Positions 231-13,514 are shown, numbered from the stretch's first letter. The stretch is 47,585 bases of DNA from Actinomycetota bacterium (GCA_002724355.1 PBOM01000057.1:75894-123478); one strand, 5' to 3'. Numbers and translations are program-made. The notes: generated from the sequence alone by a model not told the origin.

Positions 231-3200
231 TTAGTTCAATATTTCTTTCGCAGCTTGTCTAAATTTTTCGACGTTGGCTTCTTTGACACCTTCGTAGCCG
301 CGAATCATGTCGGGCAACTCAGCTATGCGTAACGCCTTGTCGTAACTGTCTAGGTGAAGATCTGCTACCACTGCTTCGATCATCCCCTGGTATTCGTCTA
401 CCAAGCCTCGTTCCATCTTGCGATGAGCGGTATTGCCGAAGATATCTAGCGGAGTTCCGCGCAGGAACTTCATTCGGCGAAGTACGGCGAATGCAACGTC
501 GCCCGAGCGGCCAAGCCCGATTTTTTGTTCAAGTCCGAGTCGCTTCATAGAGGGGGGATGCAGCTTGTAGGTGACTTTGCTTCGATCTCCGAACTGGTCG
601 CGGACTGCTTGTTGGAATGCCTTGGACCGGTGAAGTCGTGCGACTTCGTATTCGTCTTTATAGGCCATCAACTTGTAGAGGTAACGGGCATAAGCTTCAG
701 ACAATCGCGTATCTTGTCCGACGCTCGCTTCAGCCGTTCTCACTGCACTGACTCTTTCTACGTAGACCTTTGCATATTTAATGTTTTGGTACTCAACAAG
801 GTCTGGCACTCGGATTCGCAGCAGTCGTTCAAGTTCTTCAGATGGTTCCGGAACGGAGTCGATGAGAACCTGAAGGGCTTCGGACACATTGTTTTTCCGG
901 CTGACTTTCCCGACCCGTTCAATCCCTAATTTCTCGATGAAGCCAGGCTCAAGCACTATTTGGCGGCCGATTCGAAACGCTTGGGTGTTCATTTCGACTG
1001 CAACGCCATTGAGTTCGATGGCGCGTTCTATCGCTGCTGAACTAATGGGTACTACTCCGCTCTGGTAAGCAGAGCCGAGGACGATGATGTTTGCAGGCAT
1101 GTGTGACCGGAACAGGTTGTCTGACAGGTTGCCAGCGTCGTAGTAGACATTTTTTTCGGGCACCGTAGCGCTATCGATTGATTGCTGTAGCGCTGACCAT
1201 TCTGGGTAGTCAGCTGAGGTGTCGCGAACCATCGCTCCCGTAGGAACTTTGCTGGAAGATACAAGTGCGACGGTGCGTCCCGGCATTGCCTTCTCAAGGT
1301 TGGCTGGGTTTGTGCCGCTCAACAGGTCGAACACAATGTACGCGTCTGCTTCTCCTGTGGCGATTTTGTTGGCTTCTCCTAGCTCTAGTTCACTGTCTGG
1401 ACGTCGAATCTTGAGGTTGGACACAACTGGGCCGCCTTTCTGAGCAAGGCCAGTTTGGTCAAGTCCGTGCGCTTCTTTGCCATCCAAAAGAGCTGCTGTA
1501 GCTAGTAGTTGGTTGACCGTAACGACACCGGTTCCGCCAATGCCGATCATCAAAACATTGCCTTCGTCAAGGCGGTTGGGTTCGGGTTGGTCGTCTTTGA
1601 TTTCGGCTACTGCCAGCGTCGACTTCTCAGGAACGACGCCAGCGGGCTCCACTTCTATAAATGCCGGGCAGTCGCCGTCAAGACAGGTGAAGTCCTTGTT
1701 GCAAGAAGATTGGTGGATAGCTGTCTTTCTACCGAACTCGGTTTCTACTGGCTGTACTGAAAGGCAGCTAGATTTTTCTCCGCAGTCTCCGCAACCTTCG
1801 CACACGGCTTCGTTGATGAACACCGCCATTGTTGGTTCGGCGACTTTGCCTCGTTTGCGATCGCGTCGTAATTCTGCTGCACATGGTTGGTCATATATCA
1901 AAACTGTGCATCCTGGCGTGTCGCGAAGGATTCGTTGTGCTTCGTCGAGACGGTCGCGATGCCACACTTCGGTACCTTCGGCGAAGTGTGGGTTTTCTCC
2001 ATATTTTTCGGTGTCATGGGTTAGGACCATGACCTTTGTGACTCCTTCGGCCTCAAGCGAACGAGTCAATTCTGGGACTGTCATTCCGCCGTCGACGTCC
2101 TGTCCACCGGTCATTGCAACGGCTGCGTTATAGAGGATTTTGTATGTGACGTTGGTGCCTGCAGCAACAGCTTGCCGAACGGCGAGCGATCCAGAGTGGT
2201 GGAATGTTCCGTCGCCAATGTTTTGGAATCGGTGCTCCATGGTGACAAACGGTGCAGCGCCGACCCATTGAACGCCTTCTCCTCCCATCTGGGTGGTGCC
2301 TTTCACGTTGCGGGTCGGTGTCATCGATGCCATGCCGTGACAGCCAATTCCCCCGCCAGCTTCAGAGCCTTCTGGGACCCAGGTGGAGCGGTTGTGGGGG
2401 CAGCCTGAACAGAAATTGGGTGTTCGGTTCGATTGTTTCTTGTCGTCGGGTTCACCAAGTGCCACCGGTATGGTGACGCGTTCACGTACGGCTGGGCCTA
2501 CTGCGTCTTCTCCCAACCGACCCACAAGGAATGGCCGAATTTTGCGTGCGATGAGGTCCGCGTCCATCTCGCCATGGCCGGGGAACCAGAACGAGTTTTC
2601 TGCGTCGCGTTTTCCAAGAATGGTTGGCGCGTCAGTAGTTCCATAAAGAATTTCGCGCATGAACATCTCGATGAAGGCTCGCTTTTCTTCGACTACGACA
2701 ATGGTGTCGAGACCTCGAGCGAATTCGCGGACGCCGTTGGCTTCAAGGGGCCAGACAACAGCTGGTTTGTAGAGCCTTACCCCGCGTTGTCTCAGGGCGG
2801 CTTCGTCAAGACCCATTCGATCCAGCGCTTCACGGAGGTCGTAATAAGTCTTCCCGGCTGCTACGAGGCCTATCCGGGCGTCGGAGGTAGCTCCGCATAC
2901 GGTGTCGAGTTGGTTGAGACGAGTGAATGCGTCGGTTGCCTCCATTCGACCTTCATGAATTTCCAGTTCTTGACGGACGGCGAAGGGTCCAAATAAGGCG
3001 TCCTGTTGGGTGTGTTGCCAGGGAGTGCCGTCCCATTCGAAGTCTGGGCGTTGCATCTGGACTCGACCGGGGCCTACCTTGATGGTTGAGTAGCCATCTG
3101 CCACGTTTGTCACAATTTTCAGTGACACCCATAGGCCGCTGTAACGCGAGAGTTCGTAACCAATGCGGCCGTAATCGGCCACCTCTTGAACGGTTCCCGG

Positions 3201-3716
3201 GTACAGGATGGGTGTTTGAAAATGAAGCAGCGCGAACTCAGATTCGGACGCCAGAGTTGATGATTTAGATGCGGGATCATCGCCCGCTACTAGTAGTACG
3301 CCGCCTTTAGGGTCAACTCCACATACGTTGGCGTGCCGGATAGCGTCACCGGAGCGATCCACACCGGGGGCTTTTCCGTACCACATCCCCAACACACCAT
3401 CGAATTTTCCATCGAAGTTGCGATTGGCTAATTGTGAGCCCCAAACGGTGGTAGCGCCAAGATCTTCGTTAAGGCCAGGAACGAACTGAATGTTGTTTTC
3501 GGCTAGTTCGTCAGCATTGCCGAGCATGAGGGAGTCGATGCCTCCCAAAGGGGAACCTCGGTAACCAGACACCATGGCAGCATTGTTCAGACCATCTCGT
3601 TTATCGGCGCGCAACTGGTCCAAAAGAACCCTCAGAAGCGCCTGAACTCCCGACATAGCGACGTCTCCCTCGCTACGTGTGAATCGATCCTCTAGTTTGA
3701 AGTCAGCTAACGCCAT
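231..3716 (-). CDS. indolepyruvate/2-oxoacid:ferredoxin oxidoreductase family protein, fused alpha-beta form
   Basis: Single 1161-aa ORF. It has a TPP-binding GDGTFHHSG...NAAVAMTGGQ block, a ferredoxin-type CEGCGDCGEKSSC cluster and the N-terminal YRGSPLGG block typical of fused IorA/IorB proteins. An AGGAGG-type SD lies just upstream of ATG 3716. Confidence 0.9.
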   Translation of the reverse strand: MALADFKLEDRFTRSEGDVAMSGVQALLRVLLDQLRADKRDGLNNAAMVSGYRGSPLGGIDSLMLGNADELAENNIQFVPGLNEDLGATTVWGSQLANRNFDGKFDGVLGMWYGKAPGVDRSGDAIRHANVCGVDPKGGVLLVAGDDPASKSSTLASESEFALLHFQTPILYPGTVQEVADYGRIGYELSRYSGLWVSLKIVTNVADGYSTIKVGPGRVQMQRPDFEWDGTPWQHTQQDALFGPFAVRQELEIHEGRMEATDAFTRLNQLDTVCGATSDARIGLVAAGKTYYDLREALDRMGLDEAALRQRGVRLYKPAVVWPLEANGVREFARGLDTIVVVEEKRAFIEMFMREILYGTTDAPTILGKRDAENSFWFPGHGEMDADLIARKIRPFLVGRLGEDAVGPAVRERVTIPVALGEPDDKKQSNRTPNFCSGCPHNRSTWVPEGSEAGGGIGCHGMASMTPTRNVKGTTQMGGEGVQWVGAAPFVTMEHRFQNIGDGTFHHSGSLAVRQAVAAGTNVTYKILYNAAVAMTGGQDVDGGMTVPELTRSLEAEGVTKVMVLTHDTEKYGENPHFAEGTEVWHRDRLDEAQRILRDTPGCTVLIYDQPCAAELRRDRKRGKVAEPTMAVFINEAVCEGCGDCGEKSSCLSVQPVETEFGRKTAIHQSSCNKDFTCLDGDCPAFIEVEPAGVVPEKSTLAVAEIKDDQPEPNRLDEGNVLMIGIGGTGVVTVNQLLATAALLDGKEAHGLDQTGLAQKGGPVVSNLKIRRPDSELELGEANKIATGEADAYIVFDLLSGTNPANLEKAMPGRTVALVSSSKVPTGAMVRDTSADYPEWSALQQSIDSATVPEKNVYYDAGNLSDNLFRSHMPANIIVLGSAYQSGVVPISSAAIERAIELNGVAVEMNTQAFRIGRQIVLEPGFIEKLGIERVGKVSRKNNVSEALQVLIDSVPEPSEELERLLRIRVPDLVEYQNIKYAKVYVERVSAVRTAEASVGQDTRLSEAYARYLYKLMAYKDEYEVARLHRSKAFQQAVRDQFGDRSKVTYKLHPPSMKRLGLEQKIGLGRSGDVAFAVLRRMKFLRGTPLDIFGNTAHRKMERGLVDEYQGMIEAVVADLHLDSYDKALRIAELPDMIRGYEGVKEANVEKFRQAAKEILN

Positions 3717-3793: not shown

Positions 3794-5029
3794 TCAAGCT
3801 CGATTGTTGTTACTGGGTAAGCGCGTCGCTAGCAGCAATGCAAGCCCGTTTGCTATGCCTGAAAGCAAGAAAGCCCATCTGTAGTTGCCCAAAGCGTCCC
3901 GCAATACCTGGGCTGTATAAGGACCAATAGCGGCCATAGTTCCCGCTGTGGCGAAGATTCTTCCGACGATAGAACCTGCGTGGGCGCGCCCAAAGAAGTC
4001 TGCGACGAGTGGGGGGAAGACCACCACTCCCCCTCCATAGGCAAATCCAAACGTTGCTGCCGATAGATACAGCAACCACAGCGAGTTAGCGCCAGCCATC
4101 CCGAGAAAAGAGGCTGTCTCTAAGAATAAGGCCAACATGACTGCATTTTTTCTGCCAATGCGATCGGAGACCGGCCCCATTACCAGGCGGCCGATGAGCC
4201 CTCCAATTCCTATCGCTGAGATCACAGTTGAGGCTGTTTGCAATGACGCGCCGAGGCTCTGAGCGAATTGCACGCCATGAACAAACGGAACGAAGACCGC
4301 AACGAAAGTAAGTGCGTACATCCCAAAAATTTTCCAATAGGTGCGACTCCTCCATGCTTCAGCAGGAGTCATCCCTTCTTCGAGATCCTCAGTTAGGCCA
4401 CCAGTTGGCTCAATTCGACCATCTGGTTTTTGGCCTACTCCTTCTGGGTCTCGTTCGAGAACAATCGAGCTCAGCAACATACAGACACCGCCCGTCAGCG
4501 ACATCGCCAGAATCGCAACCCGCCATCCATACGCTGATACGAGAACGGCTGCAATCGGGGGAACCAGGATGTTGGCAAGACTCCCGCCTGCGGTTGCTAT
4601 TGCTGTCGCGAATCCTCGTCTCACTACAAACCAGCGCACAACCGTTGCGTTGCATGGCACCCAAGAACAACTCATTCCAAGAGGAGCGACGATGGCCATT
4701 CCTATTGCGACGACGATGATGTTGTTTGCGGTAGCCCACAACAAGTACCCACTTGTGAGGAGGACCGCTCCCACTGCTACGACGGGCCTTGGCCCCATAC
4801 GGTCGGTCAGCCATCCGCTTATGGCAGATAATGCGCTGTATAGACCTATGTAGATAGCGAAGATCAGTTGGAGCCGATTTTCGGACCATCCCGTGTCATG
4901 AACCACGTCTCCCACGAAGGTGCCGAAGCTGAACTGGATTCCGTAAACGACGAACAGGACGGTGAATGCTGCGCCAACGATGCGCCACCCGAAGAATTTC
5001 TGTTCGACTGGCTTAACGGAGAAGATCAC
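3794..5029 (-). CDS. MFS transporter (oxalate/formate antiporter-like subfamily)
   Basis: 411 aa and hydrophobic throughout, with about 12 TM segments. It has an N-terminal WRIVGAAF...YGIQFSFGTF block and a GWLTDRMGPR loop (MFS motif A). GTG start lies 8 nt after the upstream stop. Confidence 0.85.
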   Translation of the reverse strand: MIFSVKPVEQKFFGWRIVGAAFTVLFVVYGIQFSFGTFVGDVVHDTGWSENRLQLIFAIYIGLYSALSAISGWLTDRMGPRPVVAVGAVLLTSGYLLWATANNIIVVAIGMAIVAPLGMSCSWVPCNATVVRWFVVRRGFATAIATAGGSLANILVPPIAAVLVSAYGWRVAILAMSLTGGVCMLLSSIVLERDPEGVGQKPDGRIEPTGGLTEDLEEGMTPAEAWRSRTYWKIFGMYALTFVAVFVPFVHGVQFAQSLGASLQTASTVISAIGIGGLIGRLVMGPVSDRIGRKNAVMLALFLETASFLGMAGANSLWLLYLSAATFGFAYGGGVVVFPPLVADFFGRAHAGSIVGRIFATAGTMAAIGPYTAQVLRDALGNYRWAFLLSGIANGLALLLATRLPSNNNRA

Positions 5030-5037
5030 GACGCCGA

Positions 5038-6183
5038 CTAGCGATCCCCCGGAGCCATATAAAACCAGATCGGATTATTTTCTCCAGCGTCGGCCATGGC
5101 TTGCCTCGCCGCCATGACTACTTTGCCAGCTTCAGTGTGATCTAGGAACCATCGGGTTCCCGCCCACGCTGACGGGGCGTGGTCTGATAACGCTAGAGCC
5201 GCTGTTTCGTAATATCCGCGAATGTCCTGACTCACTCGTGACGGAATTCCCGGTATCCCGGCCTCTTTCCATGAAGTACCTTCAGCAACTCTCACGAACG
5301 CTTCTATTGCGGTTGTTATGTCGTCAACTTGAACAGCTCTCCCGGCGCCAACTCGGTTCCCGTATTTGGCGATCGCGCGTTCATAGGCGGGCCTCAGCCC
5401 GTTGGCCTCGTCCACCGCTGGGTGAGCGTCGGGGTCATGGCGGGGAGGCATCGGGCACGCCAGAACTTCGCTTTCGTCGTCGGGAATAATGACGTCATAT
5501 TCAGCAAAGATGGGTTCTGGACTCTGCAGCATTTCGAATGCGGTTGCTAGGACCCGATGTTGAAATTCTGGATCGCCTGGAACTCCTAAGGGCCTACCCA
5601 GGGGAAAATCACACCAAAGACCGCGTGGCGGCGCGGTGCTCTCTATCTGATTCTTAATGGAGCCAAGGGCGACAGTGGCGATGCCTTCAGCTTCGAAAAT
5701 GTGGGCGAGCGTACTCACGGTACGCGTGCACAAGGGTCAAACAGGAGTTAACAGAACGATGTCAACACCCTGTTCTTTTAGGAATTTGGCTCCTGCGGGA
5801 CCGCTGTCCATTTTTATTGCAGATAGCTCAAATTGATTGCCCGCGTAGGCGAGATGTTCGTCTGCTACAGAGCCGATCACTCCTTGGGCAGCTAGTTCAT
5901 CTAAGCGGTCGATCGGAAAAACTGTATTGATATCTAGTGCGAATCCTGTTGCGTCGAAGTTAGGACTCCAATGCCCCATTACGTAGTCTCTTGTTTCAGA
6001 TTGCAGTACCCGATACCCCGTATCCGTCGGCGAGAAATCTTCGTCGTCGGGGTGATGTAGGGAGGCCGAAGTGACTATCGCCACCTTGGCCTCAGAGAGT
6101 GGTACAGGTTCGGTAAACGCTGTTTCGTCAAATTCGACTGCGTCGAGGTTCGCTGTCATCGCTTTAATATCGCTGTCGGCCAT
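5038..6183 (-). CDS. PrdB/GrdB-family (glycine/sarcosine/betaine/D-proline reductase component B-like) selenoprotein; UGA 5739..5737 decoded as Sec (148 aa + U + 232 aa = 381 aa)
   Basis: Track ORFs 5737..6183 and 5038..5733 are in the same frame and separated only by TGA. The joined sequence reads ...GVDIVLLTPV-U-PLCTRTVSTLAHIFEAEGIATVAL...PPRGLWCDFPLGRPLGVPGDP. The downstream half has no ATG or SD of its own. It carries a UxxC motif plus GrdB/PrdB-like blocks (INTVFPIDRLDELAAQGVIGS, EAEGIATV, PLGRPLG), and a hairpin follows the UGA. Confidence 0.7.
5701..5733 (-). other. putative bacterial SECIS-like hairpin immediately 3' of the in-frame UGA
   Basis: On the mRNA strand the core is GCGUAC(5725..5720)-CGUGA-GUACGC(5714..5709), a perfect 6-bp stem with a 5-nt loop containing GU. 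A possible lower GUG/CAC stem flanks it. The apical loop starts 17 nt after the UGA, within the spacing range used for bacterial SECIS elements. Confidence 0.4.
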
Positions 6184-6225
6184 GGTGCCGAGCCTAGGCC
6201 AGTCGTAACTCCATTGCAGATTCCA

Positions 6226-7137
6226 CTATCGGCGGTCGACCGATAGCAGGGCGACACCTGTAACAACTAGTGCACCGCCAAGCATCTCGAAAGTTCCGAG
6301 CCGGTCACCGACGAGTAGCCAACTGAAGAGCACTCCGAAGAACGGTGTTAAGTACGCGACTGCAGCGCCTTGGATCGCGGGGGCACGTCGAAGCACACTT
6401 GCGAACAGGTAGAAGGTGACTGCAAGGGATGGGATACCTGCATAAAGCAAGGGCAGCGCTAGCCCCCATCCCATGGAGGTATCAGACCAGTCTTCTACGA
6501 ATGGAACAGCTAGGTGAAGACATATTGCAGAAAAGGTGATCTGAAGCGCGACCAACATCAATGGGCTGATTTCTAAGGCGCCGGGTAATCGTTTGTTGAG
6601 CACTGCTCCTGCTGCCCAACTGATACTAGAAATTAATGAAAAGACGATACCTAAGGTGGTGTTGCCAGACCCAAAGGCTGGGATAGCGAGGCATACCGCC
6701 CCGAACAGGCCGATTAGTAATCCGAAATAGCCCCGGCGTCCTGGTAGCTCAGTAAGAACTATCACTGCGATTATCGCTGTAAACAGCGGCATAGTTGCCG
6801 AAAGCATCGCTGCTAGGCCCGGCGAAAGACGCGAAATCCCGAGAACAAGGAAACCACTTGACACCGTCGTTATAGCAAGGGAGATCCACCAAACAGCCAT
6901 CCACTGTTGACGGTTTTGGGGCAACTTTTCTCCGCGAAGCATGGCTATTGCCAATAGAAAGGGAGCGCCCACAGATGTTCGAAGCGCGGCCAAAGCGAGT
7001 GGCGTGGTGTGGTCTAGAGCCCACTTCATCACGGTGTAGTTGAGTCCTATAAGTAGCGCTGTGAGTACGACCAGAGCAACTGTTATGGAACTAGAGGAGG
7101 CGGCAATTTTGGGTTCGAGCCCGCCCTGCTTCTTCAC
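6226..7137 (-). CDS. EamA/DMT-family transporter
   Basis: 303 aa with about 10 TM segments arranged as two EamA-like repeats. GTGA start/stop overlap with the upstream SDR gene. Confidence 0.85.
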   Translation of the reverse strand: MKKQGGLEPKIAASSSSITVALVVLTALLIGLNYTVMKWALDHTTPLALAALRTSVGAPFLLAIAMLRGEKLPQNRQQWMAVWWISLAITTVSSGFLVLGISRLSPGLAAMLSATMPLFTAIIAVIVLTELPGRRGYFGLLIGLFGAVCLAIPAFGSGNTTLGIVFSLISSISWAAGAVLNKRLPGALEISPLMLVALQITFSAICLHLAVPFVEDWSDTSMGWGLALPLLYAGIPSLAVTFYLFASVLRRAPAIQGAAVAYLTPFFGVLFSWLLVGDRLGTFEMLGGALVVTGVALLSVDRR

Positions 7138-7910
7138 GCTCCCTCTAAAAGATCGAGAGATCTTCTACGAAGTCGTCGCATCCCATTTAGCCACCGATCA
7201 GGGTCCGAAGCTTTGCGTTCTGTGTAGGTTTGGACTTCCGGGTGAGACAGGATCAGGAACTCTTCGTTACGCATCGCTTGCGTGATTTTGTCCGCGACGA
7301 AATCAGCTTCAACTATCCCATCGGTTCCACCGTCGCCCAGTTGTCGAGGCGCCATAGCGGTGTTGACTCCCTGAGGACATAGAACTGACACTCGGATACC
7401 GTCATCGCCGTGAGTTATAGCAAGGGTCTCAGCCAATTTGATGCATGCAGCTTTGGTGACTGAGTAAGGGGCTGAACCAACTGCTGCGAGAAGACCCGCT
7501 GCGCTCGCGGTGTGAACCAAATAGCCCTCTCCTTGTGCCGTCATGGAAGGCAACACAGCGCGAGCGGCATACACATGAGACATTACGTGCAGTTCCCATT
7601 GTGACTGCCAAGCCTCGTTGGAAGCCTCTACGCCTCCTTCTGCCCCTGCGCCGGCATTCGAAAAGAAGATGTCGACCGGGCCGTTTGCGGTTTCAGTATC
7701 GTCAACGAGTTGACTTACAGCCTCTTCATTGGTGACGTCTAGACCCACGCCAACGCATCCAAGTTCTTCAGCTACTTGAAGTGCTGCTGCTTCGTTGTAG
7801 TCAGCCACCACTACTTGCCTAGCGCCCTCTGACATCCATTTGCGGGCTGTTGCCGATCCAATGCCGCCACCGCCGCCGGTGATAATTGCTACACGATCTT
7901 TAATTTCCAT
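7134..7910 (-). CDS. SDR-family oxidoreductase
   Basis: Rossmann motif ITGGGGGIGSA, NAG motif (FSNAGAG) and catalytic YSVTK (YxxxK); 258 aa. Confidence 0.9.
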   Translation of the reverse strand: MEIKDRVAIITGGGGGIGSATARKWMSEGARQVVVADYNEAAALQVAEELGCVGVGLDVTNEEAVSQLVDDTETANGPVDIFFSNAGAGAEGGVEASNEAWQSQWELHVMSHVYAARAVLPSMTAQGEGYLVHTASAAGLLAAVGSAPYSVTKAACIKLAETLAITHGDDGIRVSVLCPQGVNTAMAPRQLGDGGTDGIVEADFVADKITQAMRNEEFLILSHPEVQTYTERKASDPDRWLNGMRRLRRRSLDLLEGA

Positions 7911-7944
7911 GCCTTGAACCTAGATGGAAGAAGCAACCAGTTGC

Positions 7945-8781
7945 TTAACTTTCGGCAACTCCGTTTTTGGTTCTCATCGCCGCATAGGCAACCTCATCTG
8001 ATTGCGCTGCACCTAGAAACCTGCCCGGGCTCGCCCCATCAACGTGGCCCATGATGCCTTTATACAGAGTGAACCCACACAAAGAAGCCAAACGCTCAGG
8101 CATCTCTTTCACATCTTGAGGGGAAAGGCTGTAGTACTGGTTTTGTTGCTGACGCATATACCCCTGGCAGTATTGAACGCTGATTCCTAATCTCCAGTCA
8201 TCTTGTGTGGTGTTGGCACCACCGCAATGCCAAGTTCCGCCGTTGACAATCAGAATTGACCCGGCTTCCATCTCCGCGGGTATGTGTTGCACCTCTTCCC
8301 CTTTGCGGGGTTCGTGGTCAAATTTATGGGAGCCGGGGACTATGCGAGTGGCTCCATTGTCAGCCGTAAAGTCGGTAAAGGCCCAAATGGTGGTCACCAT
8401 GAATGGAATCCGAGGCCTACTCACGCTTACCAGACCATCGTCGCTGTGCAACCCCTGGTGGACTTCTCCAGGACCTATATGCATGCACGTGGTTCCAGAC
8501 AGGAGACACTCCTCATCTAGCAAGTGTTCGGCGAAGGGAAGCACGTTGTGATGAACGGGAAGCTTCCAGAACACCCGGTCCTTAGCTAACAAGTTGTACA
8601 TGCGCTTAGTAGCGAAGCCCTCCGCTCGGTTTCCTCGGGGTTGCACATCATGTTCTTTTTCCAACTGAGTTACCGAGTTTCTGACCTCTTCGAGCAAATC
8701 TTGGTCGATGGCATTTTTTACGATGCAGTAGCCCTGTTCTTCTATGAGGTCGAGATAACCAGACAGTGTCGCTGAATCCAT
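7945..8781 (-). CDS. phytanoyl-CoA dioxygenase (PhyH) family Fe(II)/2-oxoglutarate oxygenase
   Basis: HxD (GLHSDDG) plus a distal His (GTWHCGGAN) form the facial triad, and length and sequence are PhyH-like. The start is placed at ATG 8781 (MDSATLSGYL...) because the track's longer ORF (to 8943) would overlap the divergent gene. Confidence 0.8.
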   Translation of the reverse strand: MDSATLSGYLDLIEEQGYCIVKNAIDQDLLEEVRNSVTQLEKEHDVQPRGNRAEGFATKRMYNLLAKDRVFWKLPVHHNVLPFAEHLLDEECLLSGTTCMHIGPGEVHQGLHSDDGLVSVSRPRIPFMVTTIWAFTDFTADNGATRIVPGSHKFDHEPRKGEEVQHIPAEMEAGSILIVNGGTWHCGGANTTQDDWRLGISVQYCQGYMRQQQNQYYSLSPQDVKEMPERLASLCGFTLYKGIMGHVDGASPGRFLGAAQSDEVAYAAMRTKNGVAES

Positions 8782-8838
8782 GCACCGATTCTTACAGCTT
8801 GGGGACACCGTTCGCACTTTCCTGCGAGACTGATCCTT

Positions 8839-10197
8839 ATGAGTGCCCTGTCGCCACCTAGGCGGATGATTTTGAACGCATTCACTATGAACTGTGTGAG
8901 CCACATCCAACAAGGGATGTGGAGCAGAAATGACACTCGCCAAACCGAGTTCAATTCTTTGGAACCGTGGTTAGAGTTAGCCCGCATTGCCGAGAAGGGT
9001 TGTCTAGACACCATTTTTCTTGCTGATGTTATGGGTCTGTACGACAACTACGAGGACGGAGCCGATACGTCTTTTAGGGAAGCCATGCAGGTCCCCGTTA
9101 ACGACCCCATGCTTCTTATTCCGGCCATGGCTTCAGTCACTCGACATCTAGGGTTTGCGTTCACAAGTTCCGTCTTGCAAGCCCATCCGTTTACCTTTGC
9201 TCGCCAGTTGTCGACTTTGGACCACTTGACAGAAGGCCGAGTGGCATGGAATGTCGTTACCTCCTATCTACCGAACGCTGGCAGCAACCTCGGTTTTGAT
9301 GGTTTGCCGCCACACGATGAACGTTATGAGCGAGCCGAAGAATATTTAGAGGTCGTGTACAAGCTCCTTGAGGGAAGCTGGGCCGACGATGCCGTGGTCC
9401 ATGACCGAGATCGGCGCGTTTACGCAGAGCCCGACCGTGTTCGCGCGATCAATCATCGCGGCCCTTACTTCCAGGTGGCTGGGCCCCACCTTTCCTCACC
9501 GTCTCCTCAACGAACGCCGGTGCTTTTCCAGGCTGGTATGTCCGAACGAGGCCGGACGTTCGCGGCTCAGCACGCAGAATGCATTTTTGTTGTGGGGTCA
9601 TCTCGTAGCGCAGCAACCTTGGCACAGGATTTACATAAGCGAGCTCACCTTCAAGGGCGGTCAAACACCGACATGAGACTTATTGGAGGGGTAGCGCCCA
9701 TTGTCGGAGGAACAGAGAGTGAAGCTTTAGATAAGCAAGCTGATTATGAAGAAAGTCTTTCTATCGAGGCAGGATTGGCTCATATCAGCGGGAACCTCGG
9801 GGTTGATCTGGGCGGTATCGACCCAGATCAACCTCTAGAGAGCTTTCGAACCGAACGAGTTCAAGGATTCATCAAGAACCTGCTCGACTCAGCACCGGCT
9901 GGCACTAGGACTATGGGCGATTTGATCAAGTCAAATTTAGCTGGAGCCTGGCTTACGGGATCCGTTGAGCAAGTGGCAGACGAATTGGAGCGACGATTTC
10001 ACAGCGGCTTGGACGGGTTTAACCTCACCTATACGGTGACCCCAGGAACCTTTGTTGACTTCATAGAAGGGGTAGTGCCAATCCTCCAGGAAAGAGATTT
10101 AGTTCAACGCGAATACGCGTCAGGCACACTCCGAAAAAAACTATTCGGACAAGATCGTCTTCCCTCGAGCCACCCTGCGGCCGCTGTTCGCTTTTAA
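8839..10197 (+). CDS. LLM-class flavin-dependent monooxygenase, NtaA/SnaA/DszA (group C) family
   Basis: 452 aa. The N-terminal LNAFTMNCVSHIQQGMW block is characteristic of NtaA/DszA-type monooxygenases. The real start may be the ATG at 8866 (MILNAF...). Confidence 0.85.
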   Translation: MSALSPPRRMILNAFTMNCVSHIQQGMWSRNDTRQTEFNSLEPWLELARIAEKGCLDTIFLADVMGLYDNYEDGADTSFREAMQVPVNDPMLLIPAMASVTRHLGFAFTSSVLQAHPFTFARQLSTLDHLTEGRVAWNVVTSYLPNAGSNLGFDGLPPHDERYERAEEYLEVVYKLLEGSWADDAVVHDRDRRVYAEPDRVRAINHRGPYFQVAGPHLSSPSPQRTPVLFQAGMSERGRTFAAQHAECIFVVGSSRSAATLAQDLHKRAHLQGRSNTDMRLIGGVAPIVGGTESEALDKQADYEESLSIEAGLAHISGNLGVDLGGIDPDQPLESFRTERVQGFIKNLLDSAPAGTRTMGDLIKSNLAGAWLTGSVEQVADELERRFHSGLDGFNLTYTVTPGTFVDFIEGVVPILQERDLVQREYASGTLRKKLFGQDRLPSSHPAAAVRF

Positions 10198-10205
10198 CCC
10201 ATGGG

Positions 10206-11375
10206 TTAACTGAATCGCGCTTTTCCGCTCTGCCAAGCCAAAAAGGTTGCTATTAACGAGAGAAGAAGCAATGAGGCCCAGGCCGTTCCGTAGGACCCGG
10301 TGACATCAGCGACTAAGCCAGTCAAAAATCCACCAACGGTCAGACCAGTCATGAACCCCATTACAACACGACCGCTAGCGCGACCAGAAGCTTGTTGGGG
10401 TACACCGATGATCACATACAGCATTGCTACGGCGTTCCAGGCGTTTAGACCAACTGCGGAAATTACAGCCACAGGCCACATAATCCAAGATCCCACCGCC
10501 ACCGCTATGCACAGCATTGCCATGACTAAAGCTGTCAACGATGATTGAACAGCAAGCGCAACCGGCGGTCTTATTCGGTGCTCTGCTAGGTGGGCCCAAA
10601 TGATTCGCGTGCCAATAGCAATTCCCCCAGGAAGACCTGCCACTAGTCCGGCAGCTACGTTCGACATATTCAACGCGTTTTCTGCGAATAGGACTGTGTA
10701 GCGTCCAACTCCCCCTACTACACAGCCCATACACAGGGCGTACAGCGCGATTAGCGAAACTGACCTGGGAAGCTGCAAGGTTGAAGACTTTCCATCGATA
10801 GGAAAGCTTGATTGAGTTCGATCTCGGCTGTCAGGGAGGGCTACCGCTGTCAGAGCAGCCACCAAGATAGCCAGCACAGCGTATAGCCCTATCGCTACAC
10901 GCCAGTTAAGCCAGATACTCAAAGCTGGAAGCGTGAACCCACCTAATAAGATGCCGAGCTGCACGCCCGATTGCTTGATGCCCGTCATTTTCCCTCGATG
11001 ACCTGGTGCAGCCCTTTCTGCTACGAGCTTGTTCGTTGCCGGGTTGCAAGCTCCCTGCCCGTAGCTGGAGACAAAGAGGCCAAATATCAATACGGAGGCA
11101 GATGGAGCGCAGGCCAAGATGAGTAGGCCGATACCCGAAGACAGTAAGACCAGAACGCATGACCACTTGCCTCCGTGTCGATCGCTCAGCCGGCCAGATA
11201 TAGGCGCGAATACTGCACCGAACGCGGTGTTAACAGCTACTCCTGCACCGAACAGCGTCAGTGACATCGTGAGGTCTTCTGCTAAGGCATTGGCTACTAC
11301 TGCTGTACCCACAATTGGAAAGGCACCGAGTGCCATGGTCAACACCAAGACGGTTATCAGCAACGCTGTGTTCAT
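10206..11375 (-). CDS. MFS transporter
   Basis: About 12 TM segments and an ISGRLSDRHGGK motif-A loop. The start is moved to M25 (MNTALLITV...) because the full ORF (to 11447) would overlap the divergent gene's start. Confidence 0.8.
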   Translation of the reverse strand: MNTALLITVLVLTMALGAFPIVGTAVVANALAEDLTMSLTLFGAGVAVNTAFGAVFAPISGRLSDRHGGKWSCVLVLLSSGIGLLILACAPSASVLIFGLFVSSYGQGACNPATNKLVAERAAPGHRGKMTGIKQSGVQLGILLGGFTLPALSIWLNWRVAIGLYAVLAILVAALTAVALPDSRDRTQSSFPIDGKSSTLQLPRSVSLIALYALCMGCVVGGVGRYTVLFAENALNMSNVAAGLVAGLPGGIAIGTRIIWAHLAEHRIRPPVALAVQSSLTALVMAMLCIAVAVGSWIMWPVAVISAVGLNAWNAVAMLYVIIGVPQQASGRASGRVVMGFMTGLTVGGFLTGLVADVTGSYGTAWASLLLLSLIATFLAWQSGKARFS

Positions 11376-11439
11376 GGGTCCCGACGAATTAGTTGGATCA
11401 TCAGACAACAGCACGGCTAGCACCCTACGCTGATCGACT

Positions 11440-12444
11440 ATGTCCAAGCGTCAAGTTCTCATTCCTATTTCTGCTTACGAAAGAATCCGTTCTCGACTCG
11501 ATAATTCCCAGCACGACTTTGAGATTCTCTGCTGGTCTGCCAACGAGGTCACTCATCCCGATGGGTCGATAGTAGCTAGGTCAGATTTCAGACCTGAGAT
11601 CGGGTGGATACCGATTGATCTACTGTTCGCTGGCATATCTGAAGGAATGAGCGTTCCCGACTTTTTGCTATTCGCTGATGCTCTGGTTGAGTGCGGGACC
11701 GTTGAGTGGGTCCAGTCTTGTCTAGCTGGAGCGGATGCTCCACCCCTGCAGAAGATTCTCTCCGCGGGAATTCGTCTCAGCAACAGCGACTCCCCCAACG
11801 CTGGGGTTGCCGAGTACACAATGGCCGCGATTATGAATGTTGTTCATGGCTGGGGCGAACGTGCTGACGATCAAAGAAGTGCTCGGTGGAATCAAAAGAG
11901 TTGGACCGAGATCAATGGCGGAACATGGTTGATTGTGGGTTTCGGTTCCATAGGAGGGGAAATAGCAAAAAGAGCACGGCCGTTTGGCGTTCATATTGTT
12001 GGGGCCCGACGAACCGCGACCGATGACGGCCGGGCGGATCGTATGGTCACCATGGATGAACTCCCGAGCGTTTTACCTTCAGCGGACGTGGTAGTCGTTG
12101 CGTGCCCGCTAACTGACCAAACACGCGGCTTGGTTGACAAACTGTTCTTAGACCAAATGCGCAACGGGTCCATTCTTGTAAATGTGTCGAGGGGGCCGGT
12201 AGTCGACACTGGTGATCTTCTTGAAGTACTTGATGCAGGAAGGTCGATAAGAGCAATCCTTGACGTGTTCGATATCGAGCCGTTGGAACCGACTAGTCCT
12301 CTTTGGAATCACGAAGCTGTCACGTTGACTTCTCACATAGCTGGAGCCGGATCTGGTATTACAAAGCGAGGTGATGACGTCTTTATTGAACAATTAGACG
12401 CTTACCTTGCCGGACGTGAACTGCGATTGGAGCTCAAGCCATGA
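11440..12444 (+). CDS. D-isomer-specific 2-hydroxyacid dehydrogenase family, NAD(P)-binding
   Basis: GFGSIGGEIAKRA Rossmann motif, VNVSRGPVVD (catalytic Arg) and TSHIAG (catalytic His). Confidence 0.85.
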   Translation: MSKRQVLIPISAYERIRSRLDNSQHDFEILCWSANEVTHPDGSIVARSDFRPEIGWIPIDLLFAGISEGMSVPDFLLFADALVECGTVEWVQSCLAGADAPPLQKILSAGIRLSNSDSPNAGVAEYTMAAIMNVVHGWGERADDQRSARWNQKSWTEINGGTWLIVGFGSIGGEIAKRARPFGVHIVGARRTATDDGRADRMVTMDELPSVLPSADVVVVACPLTDQTRGLVDKLFLDQMRNGSILVNVSRGPVVDTGDLLEVLDAGRSIRAILDVFDIEPLEPTSPLWNHEAVTLTSHIAGAGSGITKRGDDVFIEQLDAYLAGRELRLELKP

Positions 12445-13514
12445 AGTCAGAAACGATGCTGCCGCTCGGCAAAGTTGATCCAGGTTTACGAGAACCTGAT
12501 ACGCCACTCGATGTTCGAACTATCGCAGAGGGAGCGGAGCAAATTGAGTTCTTGGGATACGACGGCATCGCTGTCGAAGAATGCAAAGACGACCCGTATC
12601 AGCAATTGACTCTTGCTTCGGTCAATACCAATGAACTCGAACTGGCGACCTCCATCGCGATGGCATTTCCGCGATCACCAACGATCACTGCTATGTCTGC
12701 GTGGACCCTGCAGAAGGTGTCATCTGGCCGACTAATTCTGGGGCTCGGCTCGCAAGTGCGCGGGCATATAAAGCGTCGGTATGGAATGGAATGGACCGCG
12801 CCTGCTCCGCGGATGCGCGACTACATCTTGGCGATGAAGGCTGTGTGGCGTTGTTGGCAGGATCGCGAACCTCTGAATCACGATGGCGACCACTACAAAC
12901 TGGACCTGATGGTGCCGCTTTTTGATCCTGGACCAATCGACCATCCAGACATACCGATACATATTTCCGCTATCAACACGAATATGTGCGGGGTTGTGGG
13001 CGAGGTGGCTGATGGAATCCGGCTACACCCGGTTTGCTCGCCGAAATTCATTGCTGAAGTGATGGTTCCGGCGGTGGAGAGGGGTGCTGATAGGAGTCGA
13101 CGTAACGCTGACGATATTGACTGGTGTATGAAACCTTTGATTGCGACGGCGCCTGATGAAGCCAGCCTTCATCAGGTAGCTGAAAGCGTTCGAGCCAGAG
13201 TCGGCTTTTATCTCGCTACGCCCGCCTACAAAGCAGCGTTTGAGGTTCATGGCTGGGGTGATCAAGTGGATCAGGCAGCTTCATTTTCTAGGGAACAGCG
13301 CTGGGATGAGATTCCTGCGTTGGTGAGCGACGAAATGTTTCACACAATCGCGACTGTTGGCACGTACGACAGAATTGCTTCATTGTTGAACGAACGATTC
13401 GGGAGTCTGATAGACCGAATTGAATTCAGCATTCCGGTCAACAACTCCGACGATGCAGATTTGTTGACCTCGATGCTTAAGGAACTACGCGAGAGCGACA
13501 GCTTGAGACCTTGA
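12441..13514 (+). CDS. LLM-class (luciferase-like) oxidoreductase, probably F420-dependent
   Basis: 357 aa with luciferase-like TIM-barrel sequence character (LILGLGSQVRGHIKRRYG). ATGA start/stop overlap with the upstream dehydrogenase. Cofactor assignment is by family resemblance only. Confidence 0.7.
   Translation: MKSETMLPLGKVDPGLREPDTPLDVRTIAEGAEQIEFLGYDGIAVEECKDDPYQQLTLASVNTNELELATSIAMAFPRSPTITAMSAWTLQKVSSGRLILGLGSQVRGHIKRRYGMEWTAPAPRMRDYILAMKAVWRCWQDREPLNHDGDHYKLDLMVPLFDPGPIDHPDIPIHISAINTNMCGVVGEVADGIRLHPVCSPKFIAEVMVPAVERGADRSRRNADDIDWCMKPLIATAPDEASLHQVAESVRARVGFYLATPAYKAAFEVHGWGDQVDQAASFSREQRWDEIPALVSDEMFHTIATVGTYDRIASLLNERFGSLIDRIEFSIPVNNSDDADLLTSMLKELRESDSLRP

What the first reader, a model, noticed from the sequence alone, without database searches (positions are those of the whole stretch)
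3794..8781. Orphan component-B-like selenoprotein in a dioxygenase-SDR-transporter operon lacking every other glycine/proline-reductase part
The genes PhyH dioxygenase (7945..8781), SDR (7134..7910), EamA transporter (6226..7137), selenoprotein (5038..6183) and MFS transporter (3794..5029) are co-directional. Gaps or overlaps are 42 nt or less (GTGA overlap, 8-nt gap). The fused 2-oxoacid:ferredoxin oxidoreductase follows. Established Grd/Prd systems need selenoprotein A (GrdA), GrdC/D/E or a pyruvoyl PrdA, and usually thioredoxin/thioredoxin reductase. None of these is in the window. The selenoprotein therefore cannot work as a canonical Stickland reductase. By inference, this may be an undescribed uptake-plus-redox pathway for a small polar substrate such as an osmolyte or amino-acid derivative. 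The low-potential electron source might be the adjacent IOR-family enzyme.
Basis: inference. Interest (0 to 1): 0.6.

Follow-up and report, generated by a model that had tools for sequence, protein, structure and literature searches.

The report
Stand-alone PrdB-like selenoprotein in lineage-specific cluster
A real selenocysteine enzyme gene, related to subunit B of clostridial proline/glycine reductases but without their partner subunits, sits in a small gene cluster that only one family of marine actinobacteria shares; the enzyme family has been catalogued since 2005 and its job is still unknown.

Summary
Five co-directional genes lie at the stated coordinates and spacings: PhyH dioxygenase, SDR, EamA transporter, a 381-aa selenoprotein and an MFS transporter. 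An IOR-family gene follows.

The selenoprotein is genuine:
- U149 lies in a U-P-L-C motif, and TGA is kept in 80 of 80 related loci.
- A 6-bp hairpin follows the UGA and shows compensatory changes.
- selA, selB and selD are present.

It is orphan. GrdA and GrdE/PrdA families were not found in any of 61 genomes of its family. Both searches ring in other Actinomycetota, so the method detects them.

The operon reading is only partly supported. The full cluster occurs only where the selenoprotein is at least 78% identical. A reduced PhyH-SDR-Sel-MFS-IOR form occurs in Poriferisodalis. About 60 other orthologous loci (Acidimicrobiia, Gammaproteobacteria, Binatia, Entotheonella, Acidobacteriota) share none of these neighbours.

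So the enzyme is most likely self-sufficient, with Sec149/Cys152 chemistry re-reduced by thioredoxin. It was probably recruited locally behind a hydroxylase and a dehydrogenase. Nothing points to IOR as electron donor.

The family is the marine 'PrdB' UxxC group of the 2005/2008 ocean selenoproteomes. This scan has met it before on other DNA.

The parts
7945..8781 (-). PhyH-family Fe(II)/2-oxoglutarate dioxygenase, first gene of the cluster
   Evidence: Pfam PhyH E 1.5e-26. Closest solved relatives are secondary-metabolite dioxygenases DhiD and SptF, E about 1e-22. Orthologues (>=71% id) were found in 38 of 61 family genomes. In 33 of 34 same-contig cases they lie 0.9-2.6 kb upstream of the selenoprotein gene.
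7134..7910 (-). Short-chain dehydrogenase/reductase (SDR), 4-nt GTGA overlap with the next gene
   Evidence: Pfam adh_short E 4.5e-39. Junction read. The orthologue (80-81% id) lies immediately upstream of the selenoprotein gene also in Poriferisodalis/Poriferisodalaceae loci L105-L107, L112, L117.
6226..7137 (-). EamA (DMT-superfamily) transporter
   Evidence: Pfam EamA E 8.6e-41. Present at this position only in the window's own clade; absent from the Poriferisodalis form of the cluster.
5038..6183 (-). 381-aa PrdB-like selenoprotein (P0001). An N-terminal PrdB-like Rossmann-type domain (about 27-234) carries U149-P-L-C152. A family-specific six-helix domain (about 255-376) forms the C-terminus.
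   Evidence: Translation with TGA=U. NCBIfam PrdB TIGR04483 E 5e-34, 117.7 bits against a cut-off of 300; Pfam GRDB 26.4 bits against 22. AF2 model pLDDT 92, pTM 0.91. The N-domain gives only generic alpha/beta matches, Z <= 8.4. The C-domain alone has pLDDT 88, best PDB representative Z 4.3, and no Pfam hit at E 10.
5737..5739 (-). In-frame UGA read as selenocysteine (U149)
   Evidence: Sequence. TGA at the homologous codon in 80 of 80 best loci from genome contigs and in all relatives' copies. selD (itself with an in-frame TGA), selA and selB are present.
5709..5725 (-). SECIS-type apical hairpin: 6-bp stem (5720-5725 with 5709-5714), 5-nt loop with G-U, loop starting 20 nt after the U of UGA
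   Evidence: The helix is 100% paired in 27 sequences from several phyla. Two pairs show changes on both sides: U-A to C-G in 5 sequences and A-U to G-C in 2.
3794..5029 (-). MFS transporter of the oxalate/formate-antiporter / monocarboxylate-transporter type, 8 nt after the selenoprotein stop
   Evidence: Pfam MFS_1 E 6e-49. NCBIfam L-lactate MFS transporter SfMCT 221.7 bits (cut-off 320) and OFA family TIGR00890 134.6 bits. Junction read. Follows the selenoprotein gene in both linked clades. A 40%-identical MFS lies two genes downstream in one Binatia locus, L121.
231..3716 (-). Fused indolepyruvate/2-oxoacid:ferredoxin oxidoreductase family gene. It is adjacent, but probably belongs to the next syntenic block rather than to the pathway.
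   Evidence: NCBIfam PRK13030 1418 bits. A 77-nt gap precedes it. In relatives it is followed by cystathionine beta-synthase, a Cys/Met PLP enzyme and an ammonium transporter.
8782..8838 (.). 57-nt divergent intergenic region between the PhyH start and the NtaA/DmoA-type monooxygenase start; likely promoter region of the cluster
   Evidence: Coordinates. No sigma-70-like match was found. Function inferred only.

Best explanation
The gene encodes a self-sufficient selenocysteine enzyme of the marine 'PrdB-like' UxxC family, not a subunit of a Grd/Prd complex.

Shown:
- It is a real Sec gene: UGA, SECIS hairpin and the sel genes are present.
- It has a PrdB-like alpha/beta domain. U149 sits at the N-terminus of a helix directly after a beta-strand, and C152 lies one turn later.
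- It carries an extra conserved helical domain.
- Its whole taxonomic family lacks GrdA and GrdE/PrdA.
- The gene has spread alone between phyla.

Inferred mechanism, by analogy with protein B chemistry:
1. The Sec149 selenolate attacks an electrophilic carbon next to a carbonyl or carboxyl group of a small substrate and displaces a heteroatom substituent.
2. Cys152 resolves the Se-C adduct to a selenenylsulfide and releases the reduced product.
3. The Se-S bond is re-reduced by the cell's thioredoxin system. A trxA-trxB pair is present elsewhere in the genome.

In this Acidimicrobiia family the gene was recruited behind a PhyH hydroxylase and an SDR. Together these could turn a C-H into the activating carbonyl. 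It sits next to a monocarboxylate-type MFS transporter, and in the window's clade also next to an EamA transporter. The result would be a lineage-specific route for an imported small polar compound. The substrate is unknown. IOR is a neighbour by synteny, not a demonstrated partner.
For: Sec decoding:
- TGA is conserved in 80/80 loci.
- The hairpin is 100% paired, with 2 compensatory pairs.
- selD, selA and selB are present.

Stand-alone status:
- PF04723 and PF09338 gave 0/61 in the family.
- Positive controls: 14/401 and 5/5.
- No fused longer forms were found (weak evidence).
- Orthologues of 55-67% identity occur in Gammaproteobacteria, Binatia, Entotheonella and Acidobacteriota with unrelated neighbours.

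Active-site motif:
- P147, U149, P150 and C152 are invariant across three paralogue classes.
- The secondary-structure position comes from the AF2 model, pLDDT 92.

Local recruitment:
- A PhyH orthologue occurs only in genomes that have the selenoprotein (38 with both, 0 with PhyH alone, 13 with the selenoprotein alone).
- It lies 0.9-2.6 kb upstream in 33 of 34 same-contig cases.
- SDR is immediately upstream in both linked clades.
- A distant PhyH-family gene lies directly upstream in one gammaproteobacterial locus, L120.

Other support:
- The thioredoxin system is available.
- A published parallel: a GrdB-like selenoprotein paired with an OFA-family MFS antiporter in the Synergistota fluoroacetate operon (PMC10838667).
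Against: - No substrate, activity or transcript data exist.
- The chemistry is an analogy with protein B enzymes, which use a pyruvoyl partner for amine substrates. That partner is missing here.
- Linkage with PhyH/SDR/MFS is confined to kin that also keep surrounding synteny (LLM genes, IOR-CBS-CGL), so it may be inheritance rather than selection.
- L120's PhyH is only 29% identical over 140 aa, and L121's MFS only 40%.
- tRNA-Sec was not found in this 75%-complete assembly.
- The coordinates of the model could not be inspected, so the pocket geometry is not tested.
Confidence: 0.5

Rival explanations
1. First reader's reading. All five genes plus the adjacent IOR form one dedicated uptake-plus-redox pathway. 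The IOR-family enzyme supplies low-potential electrons to the selenoprotein.
For: - Tight spacing and co-direction.
- No intergenic terminator-like site.
- The full six-gene order is kept in every locus where the selenoprotein is >=78% identical and the contig extends far enough.
- IOR stays next to the gene in all 13 linked loci where the sequence reaches that far.
Against: - IOR is followed by cystathionine beta-synthase, a Cys/Met PLP enzyme and an ammonium transporter in a conserved block, so its adjacency looks like plain synteny.
- EamA, PhyH, SDR and MFS each drop out in some linked loci: SDR-Sel-IOR in L105/L117 and Sel-MFS-IOR in L103.
- About 60 orthologous loci have none of these genes nearby.
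- The selenoprotein has no recognisable ferredoxin-binding or Fe-S motif (C191 is not kept in paralogue classes B and C).
Confidence: 0.12
2. The neighbours are irrelevant. The protein is a general thiol/selenol oxidoreductase (redox buffering, peroxide or electrophile defence). It happens to sit in a catabolic island in this lineage.
For: - The UxxC motif is typical of thiol-disulfide oxidoreductases, and the family was classed among thiol-dependent redox selenoproteins (PMC1088965).
- The family is very abundant in oxic surface-ocean metagenomes (PMC2398784).
- Neighbourhoods are not conserved across phyla, and the gene is often flanked by opposite-strand genes.
Against: - Relatives hold 2-6 diverged paralogues per genome, each in a different enzyme context: alpha/beta hydrolase, NUDIX, FMO, DUF1326. 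This fits substrate-specialised enzymes better than one housekeeping reductant.
- The conserved 150-aa helical domain is rich in invariant Arg, Tyr and Trp, which suggests a specific ligand pocket.
- The PhyH orthologue is never found without the selenoprotein.
Confidence: 0.3
3. It is a canonical proline or glycine/betaine reductase subunit. Its partners (PrdA or GrdE, GrdA, GrdC/D) are encoded elsewhere or lie in the unassembled quarter of the genome.
For: - The best family match is PrdB.
- The assembly is only 75% complete.
Against: - Scores are far below all equivalog cut-offs: 117.7 against 300, and 35-45 against 600-800.
- GrdA and GrdE/PrdA families gave 0/61 in the family, including closed genomes. 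The same searches ring in other Actinomycetota.
- The protein is 381 aa and has an extra domain.
Confidence: 0.02
4. It is not a selenoprotein. The TGA is a true stop, giving two separate small genes or a pseudogene.
For: - Public gene calls split it. Most database homologues are 226-aa post-TGA fragments.
- tRNA-Sec was not found in this assembly.
Against: - TGA is conserved at one codon in 80/80 loci across phyla, with both halves under conservation.
- Cys-containing full-length homologues align through the site.
- The hairpin shows covariation.
- selA, selB and selD are present.
Confidence: 0.02

Closest known systems
Marine 'Proline reductase PrdB' UxxC selenoprotein group of the Sargasso Sea and GOS selenoproteomes (Zhang, Fomenko & Gladyshev 2005, PMC1088965; Zhang & Gladyshev 2008, PMC2398784)
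   Same: - UxxC Sec motif and pfam07355 similarity.
- Marine microbial origin.
- Sec forms far outnumber Cys forms (42 against 1 in the Sargasso Sea, 235 against 110 in GOS).

This gene is a member of that catalogued group.
   Different: Those papers filed the group under proline reductase and did not examine partners, domain architecture or gene context. Here it is shown to be orphan, to carry an extra helical domain, to be multi-paralogous in Acidimicrobiia, and to sit in a lineage-specific cluster.
D-proline reductase subunit PrdB (NCBIfam TIGR04483; Clostridium sticklandii, Clostridioides difficile)
   Same: - Best profile match, E 5e-34, covering residues 27-220 against profile positions 25-219 of 238.
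- Sec in a UxxC motif at a comparable position.
- Presumed Sec-nucleophile / Cys-resolving chemistry.
   Different: - 117.7 bits against a cut-off of 300.
- 381 aa rather than about 240 aa.
- No PrdA pyruvoyl proprotein in the family's genomes.
- Likely aerobic marine hosts (not tested here) rather than Stickland fermenters.
Glycine/sarcosine/betaine reductase protein B selenoproteins GrdB/GrdF/GrdH (Pfam PF07355; TIGR01917, NF040794, NF040795)
   Same: - Homologous over the C-terminal half of those proteins (profile 205-380).
- Betaine reductase shows that the chemistry can displace a quaternary amine without Schiff-base activation.
   Different: - 35-45 bits against cut-offs of 600-800.
- Lacks the N-terminal half of GrdB.
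- The motif is U-P-L-C-T-R-T, not UxxCxxC.
- No GrdA, GrdE/GrdI or GrdC/D.
FarB, the GrdB-like selenoprotein of the Synergistota fluoroacetate operon farACEB (PMC10838667)
   Same: A protein-B-like selenoprotein encoded next to an oxalate/formate-antiporter-family MFS transporter. The proposed Sec attack on the alpha-carbon of a substituted acetate has a non-amine leaving group.
   Different: FarB is proposed to work with FarE (GrdE-like) and to feed GrdA/GrdC. It occurs in an anaerobe with a full Grd system. Here no such partners exist.

Membership tests
D-proline reductase PrdB (TIGR04483) | Whole-protein score above the curated equivalog cut-off (300 bits) | tested here: not met
   117.7 bits, E 5.1e-34
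D-proline reductase PrdB (TIGR04483) | Selenocysteine (or Cys) in a UxxC motif | tested here: met
   U149-P-L-C152. Invariant in 33 aligned homologues of three classes.
D-proline reductase PrdB (TIGR04483) | Pyruvoyl-forming PrdA proprotein encoded in the genome | tested here: not met
   PF09338 not found in G000 or in any of 61 family genomes. The same search rings 5/5 in GrdA-positive Actinomycetota.
D-proline reductase PrdB (TIGR04483) | Single-domain protein of about 240 aa | tested here: not met
   381 aa. An extra conserved helical domain spans 255-376.
Glycine/sarcosine/betaine reductase protein B (GrdB/F/H) | Score above the equivalog/exception cut-offs (602-800 bits), or above the subfamily TIGR01918 cut-off (65.45) | tested here: not met
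   35.4-44.7 bits; TIGR01918 gives 37.1 bits. Only Pfam GRDB passes, marginally: 26.4 against 22, on profile positions 205-345.
Glycine/sarcosine/betaine reductase protein B (GrdB/F/H) | Selenoprotein A (GrdA) present as carboxymethyl acceptor | tested here: not met
   PF04723 gave 0/61 family genomes. Positive control: 14 full-length hits, each with one TGA, among 401 Actinomycetota (two of the 14 are unpublished genomes and are not needed for the control).
Glycine/sarcosine/betaine reductase protein B (GrdB/F/H) | UxxCxxC motif (as described in PMC13188914) | tested here: not met
   The motif here is U-P-L-C-T-R-T, with no third Cys.
Marine 'PrdB' UxxC selenoprotein group (Zhang et al. 2005/2008) | In-frame UGA in a UxxC motif, pfam07355 similarity, and a SECIS-like element downstream | tested here: met
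Bacterial Sec-decoding trait | selA, selB, selD and tRNA-Sec in the genome | tested here: inconclusive
   selD 348 bits, selA 402 bits and selB 301 bits, all above cut-off. tRNA-Sec was not found in an assembly that is 75% complete and has only 24 tRNAs.
Conserved operon (functional gene cluster) | Linkage kept among distant orthologues beyond general synteny | tested here: not met
   Linked in only 2 clades of one family (15 of 78 loci carry at least part of the cluster). Surrounding synteny is also kept there. Linkage is absent from about 60 loci, apart from one distant PhyH (L120) and one 40%-identical MFS (L121).

The most novel reading that the evidence does not exclude
The PrdB-like protein would be a self-contained, partner-free selenocysteine C-X reductase. 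Its own conserved helical domain would take over substrate binding. In this lineage it would close a three-step aerobic route on an imported osmolyte-like compound such as a quaternary ammonium or sulfonium carboxylate:
1. Fe/2OG hydroxylation by PhyH.
2. Oxidation to a carbonyl by the SDR.
3. Sec-mediated reductive removal of the heteroatom group.

That would mean 'Stickland-type' selenium chemistry operating in oxic surface-ocean and sponge-associated bacteria. It would also explain why this is one of the most abundant ocean selenoprotein families.
Probability: 0.2. Interest if true: 0.8.

Novelty: new variant of a known kind. Interest (0 to 1): 0.45.

Why it matters
'PrdB' has ranked among the most abundant selenoprotein families in ocean metagenomes since 2005. 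It has simply been labelled proline reductase since then.

This work shows three things for a whole family of marine Acidimicrobiia:
- No PrdA or GrdA exists. The same family searches did find both genes in other Actinomycetota genomes, so the blank is meaningful.
- The protein carries an extra domain with no detectable structural relative.
- The gene moves alone between phyla.

The label therefore becomes a concrete open question: what does a partner-free protein-B-like selenoenzyme reduce in oxic seawater?

The PhyH-SDR-selenoprotein-MFS module offers a testable starting point for substrate discovery. It also gives selenium-limitation studies a candidate metabolic function.

Tried and rejected
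Neighbourhoods were instead built from the genome search, the fetch from genomes and related-loci loci with my own ORF calling and clustering. The ORF caller is crude: a first version lost PhyH to an overlap, and spurious same-strand ORFs overlapping the selenoprotein gene had to be filtered out.
- **PDB by sequence**: no relative of the selenoprotein.
- **Foldseek against PDB**: nothing at E <= 1e-3.
- **VIA-wide, whole model**: only generic Rossmann-like matches, Z <= 8.4.
- **VIA-wide, C-domain alone**: best Z 4.3.
- **Pfam on the C-terminal part** at E 10: nothing.
- **Longer or fused forms**: none found (weak evidence).
- **Single-sequence fold of the post-UGA RNA**: not better than shuffles, z 0.06. 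The evidence for the hairpin comes from the comparative analysis instead.
- **Promoter/terminator scan**: uninformative.
- **PDB relatives of PhyH and SDR**: too distant to name a substrate.
- **Idea that L120's TauD-family neighbour is a gamma-butyrobetaine-hydroxylase type**: NCBIfam gives only a sub-threshold taurine-dioxygenase match, so the idea was dropped.
- **A deep conserved partner** among class B/C paralogue neighbours and non-actinobacterial loci: none emerged. Oxygenases recur in a general way (LLM, Fe/2OG, P450, FMO), but these families are abundant in such genomes.
- **Careful IQ-TREE run**: did not finish, so the quick tree was used.

Full report
**1. The observation**

Table-11 ORFs reproduce the stated genes on the minus strand.
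- Reading TGA at 5737-5739 as Sec joins ORFs 5737..6183 and 5038..5733 into one 381-aa protein with the motif T-P-V-U149-P-L-C152-T-R-T.
- The junctions were read directly. The SDR stop and the EamA start overlap as GTGA. The EamA stop TAG is followed by 42 nt and then the ATG at 6183. The selenoprotein stop TAG is followed by 8 nt and then the MFS GTG at 5029. A 77-nt gap precedes IOR.
- The PhyH start at 8781 is supported, because orthologues align from that Met and one open frame is only 279 aa long.
- Pfam and NCBIfam give PhyH, adh_short, EamA, MFS_1 and the IOR family PRK13030 at 1418 bits. The MFS is closest to the L-lactate/monocarboxylate and oxalate/formate antiporter families.
- No terminator-like site falls between the genes, but the scan has little power.

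**2. It is a real selenoprotein**

- The assembly is G000: 2.08 Mb, 98 contigs, 75% complete. It carries selD (itself with an in-frame TGA), selA and selB above their curated cut-offs.
- tRNA-Sec was not found, but only 24 tRNAs are assembled.
- All 80 best related loci from 185,579 species genomes have TGA at the homologous codon.
- Full-length Cys homologues at about 50% identity align straight through the site.
- A 6-bp helix lies after the UGA, with its 5-nt G-U-containing loop starting 20 nt after the U. It is paired in 100% of cells across 27 sequences from several phyla. U-A becomes C-G in five sequences and A-U becomes G-C in two.

**3. What family**

- The best profile is PrdB (TIGR04483): E 5e-34 but 117.7 bits against a cut-off of 300. 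The match covers residues 27-220.
- GrdB/F/H models give 35-45 bits against cut-offs of 600-800. Pfam GRDB passes marginally.
- The AF2 model is confident (pLDDT 92, pTM 0.91). It shows a Rossmann-like alpha/beta domain, with U149 at the start of helix 150-165 directly after strand 142-146. A six-helix C-terminal domain follows.
- The conserved motifs (SxSLHH, HWSPNFD, GNQ, PVUPxC, C/V-x-FPLGRPLG) all follow beta-strands, which fits a single active-site crater. This is an inference from sequence and predicted secondary structure.
- The PDB holds no sequence relative and only generic fold matches to the N-domain.
- The C-domain modelled alone (pLDDT 88) has no PDB representative above Z 4.3 and no Pfam match.
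- The literature catalogued this group as 'proline reductase PrdB, UxxC'. It was the third most abundant selenoprotein family in the Sargasso Sea and among the top families in GOS (PMC1088965, PMC2398784). Recent reviews still list only the clostridial function.
- Earlier follow-ups in this scan reached the same identification on other genomes.

**4. Orphan status**

- PF04723 (GrdA) and PF09338 (GrdE/PrdA) give nothing in G000.
- They also give nothing in 61 genomes of the same family. Forty of these are at least 90% complete, and several are single-contig.
- The built-in controls cannot ring for these families, so I made positive controls.
  - PF04723 finds 14 full-length GrdA genes, each with one TGA, among 401 Actinomycetota. 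Two of these, G410 and G223, are unpublished genomes; the control stands on the other 12.
  - PF09338 rings in 5 of 5 of those genomes, a few kb from grdA.
- A trxA-trxB pair lies on contig C42.

**5. Is the cluster a functional unit?**

Within the family:
- tblastn of the window's proteins on +-9 kb around 20 orthologues shows the complete order PhyH-SDR-EamA-Sel-MFS-IOR, plus the divergent LLM/MFS/2-HADH/LLM genes, in every locus with at least 78% selenoprotein identity.
- At 69-75% identity only parts remain (Sel-MFS-IOR, or SDR-Sel-IOR), or nothing at all.

In 78 usable loci from the species-genome collection:
- 8 have the full cluster.
- 7 Poriferisodalis/Poriferisodalaceae loci have (PhyH-)SDR-Sel(-MFS)-IOR.
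- About 60 share none of these genes. They come from Ilumatobacteraceae and other Acidimicrobiia, Gammaproteobacteria, Pseudomonadales, Azotimanducaceae, Binatia, Entotheonella and Acidobacteriota.
- The exceptions are a 40%-identical MFS two genes downstream in one Binatia locus and a distant PhyH-family gene directly upstream in one gammaproteobacterial locus.

On a quick ML tree, the linked loci form two clades (9 of 10 and 7 of 7 linked). Everything else is unlinked.

In the 61-genome family sample:
- A PhyH orthologue (>=71% id) occurs in 38 genomes, all of which also have the selenoprotein.
- 13 genomes have the selenoprotein without PhyH, and none has PhyH without it.
- In 33 of 34 same-contig cases the two genes are 0.9-2.6 kb apart.

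These genomes are kin and keep the surrounding synteny too. IOR is followed by cystathionine beta-synthase, a Cys/Met PLP enzyme and an ammonium transporter. The linkage is therefore compatible with a real lineage-specific module, but does not prove one.

**6. What this implies**

- The gene crossed phylum boundaries alone (55-67% identity between phyla) and lands in unrelated contexts. Its product must therefore work without dedicated neighbours.
- Relatives carry 2-6 Sec-containing paralogues, each next to different enzymes:
  - class B, about 33% identical, next to DUF1326, a PpoB2 copper chaperone and an FMO;
  - class C, N-domain only plus a short tail, followed by an alpha/beta hydrolase or a NUDIX protein.
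- This pattern argues for a radiation of substrate-specific enzymes.
- Oxygenases recur around these genes: Fe/2OG, LLM, P450 and FMO. Those families are abundant in such genomes, so I do not weigh this.

**7. Proposed mechanism (inferred)**

- By analogy with protein B enzymes, the Sec149 selenolate attacks a carbon alpha to a carbonyl or carboxyl group and expels a heteroatom substituent.
- Cys152 then resolves the adduct.
- Thioredoxin re-reduces the Se-S bond.
- Betaine reductase, and the proposed fluoroacetate-specific FarB (PMC10838667), show that non-Schiff-base leaving groups are feasible for this chemistry.
- In the window's lineage, PhyH (hydroxylation) and SDR (oxidation to a carbonyl) could create the activating carbonyl. 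The monocarboxylate-type MFS and EamA would move substrate and product.
- Nothing specific links IOR to this scheme.

**8. Verdict**

- The operon-as-pathway reading is partly supported, and only for one family.
- The IOR donor idea is unsupported.
- The protein family is already catalogued but biochemically unknown. Relative to characterised Grd/Prd systems it is a stand-alone variant with an extra domain.

Noticed in passing
relatives' loci L061-L068 (class B) and L069-L080 (class C): Genomes of the same family carry 2-6 further PrdB-like genes, each with one in-frame TGA. Class B (413-430 aa, about 33% id, keeps the helical domain) sits beside divergent DUF1326 and PpoB2 copper-chaperone genes and an FMO-like monooxygenase. 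Class C (313-345 aa) is followed by an alpha/beta hydrolase or a NUDIX gene. G000 itself shows only the class A copy, but it is 75% complete.
   Followed up: partly
G000:C78:66136-67077 (locus L002): The selD gene of this genome has an in-frame TGA, so selenophosphate synthetase is itself a selenoprotein here.
   Followed up: no
window 8839-13514: Divergent from the cluster lie an NtaA/DmoA-type FMN monooxygenase, a second MFS, a D-2-hydroxyacid dehydrogenase and a TIGR03617 F420-type LLM oxidoreductase. This block is co-conserved with the cluster in the window's clade, and the NtaA-type gene also stays nearby in Poriferisodalis loci.
   Followed up: partly
L120:5685-9143 (Gammaproteobacteria MAG): A TauD/TfdA-family dioxygenase, then a PhyH-family dioxygenase, then the selenoprotein gene, all co-directional. 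This is an independent case of Fe/2OG dioxygenases directly upstream of an orthologue (66% id).
   Followed up: partly
L121:8001-11786 (Binatia MAG): The selenoprotein gene is followed co-directionally by a small cupin, an OFA-like MFS (40% id to the window's MFS) and a GST-family gene.
   Followed up: partly
loci L103, L105-L107, L112, L115, L121-L123, L128, L132, L146, L148: Many hosts of close orthologues are sponge-associated lineages (Poriferisodalis, Entotheonella, Binatia, Azotimanducaceae, Multivorans). Identities of 58-67% across phyla suggest horizontal spread within that habitat.
   Followed up: no
window 231-3716 and relatives (L041:147-4117): The fused IOR-family gene is followed in relatives by cystathionine beta-synthase (PALP+CBS), a Cys/Met-metabolism PLP enzyme and an ammonium transporter. 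This conserved block reaches beyond the left edge of the window.
   Followed up: partly
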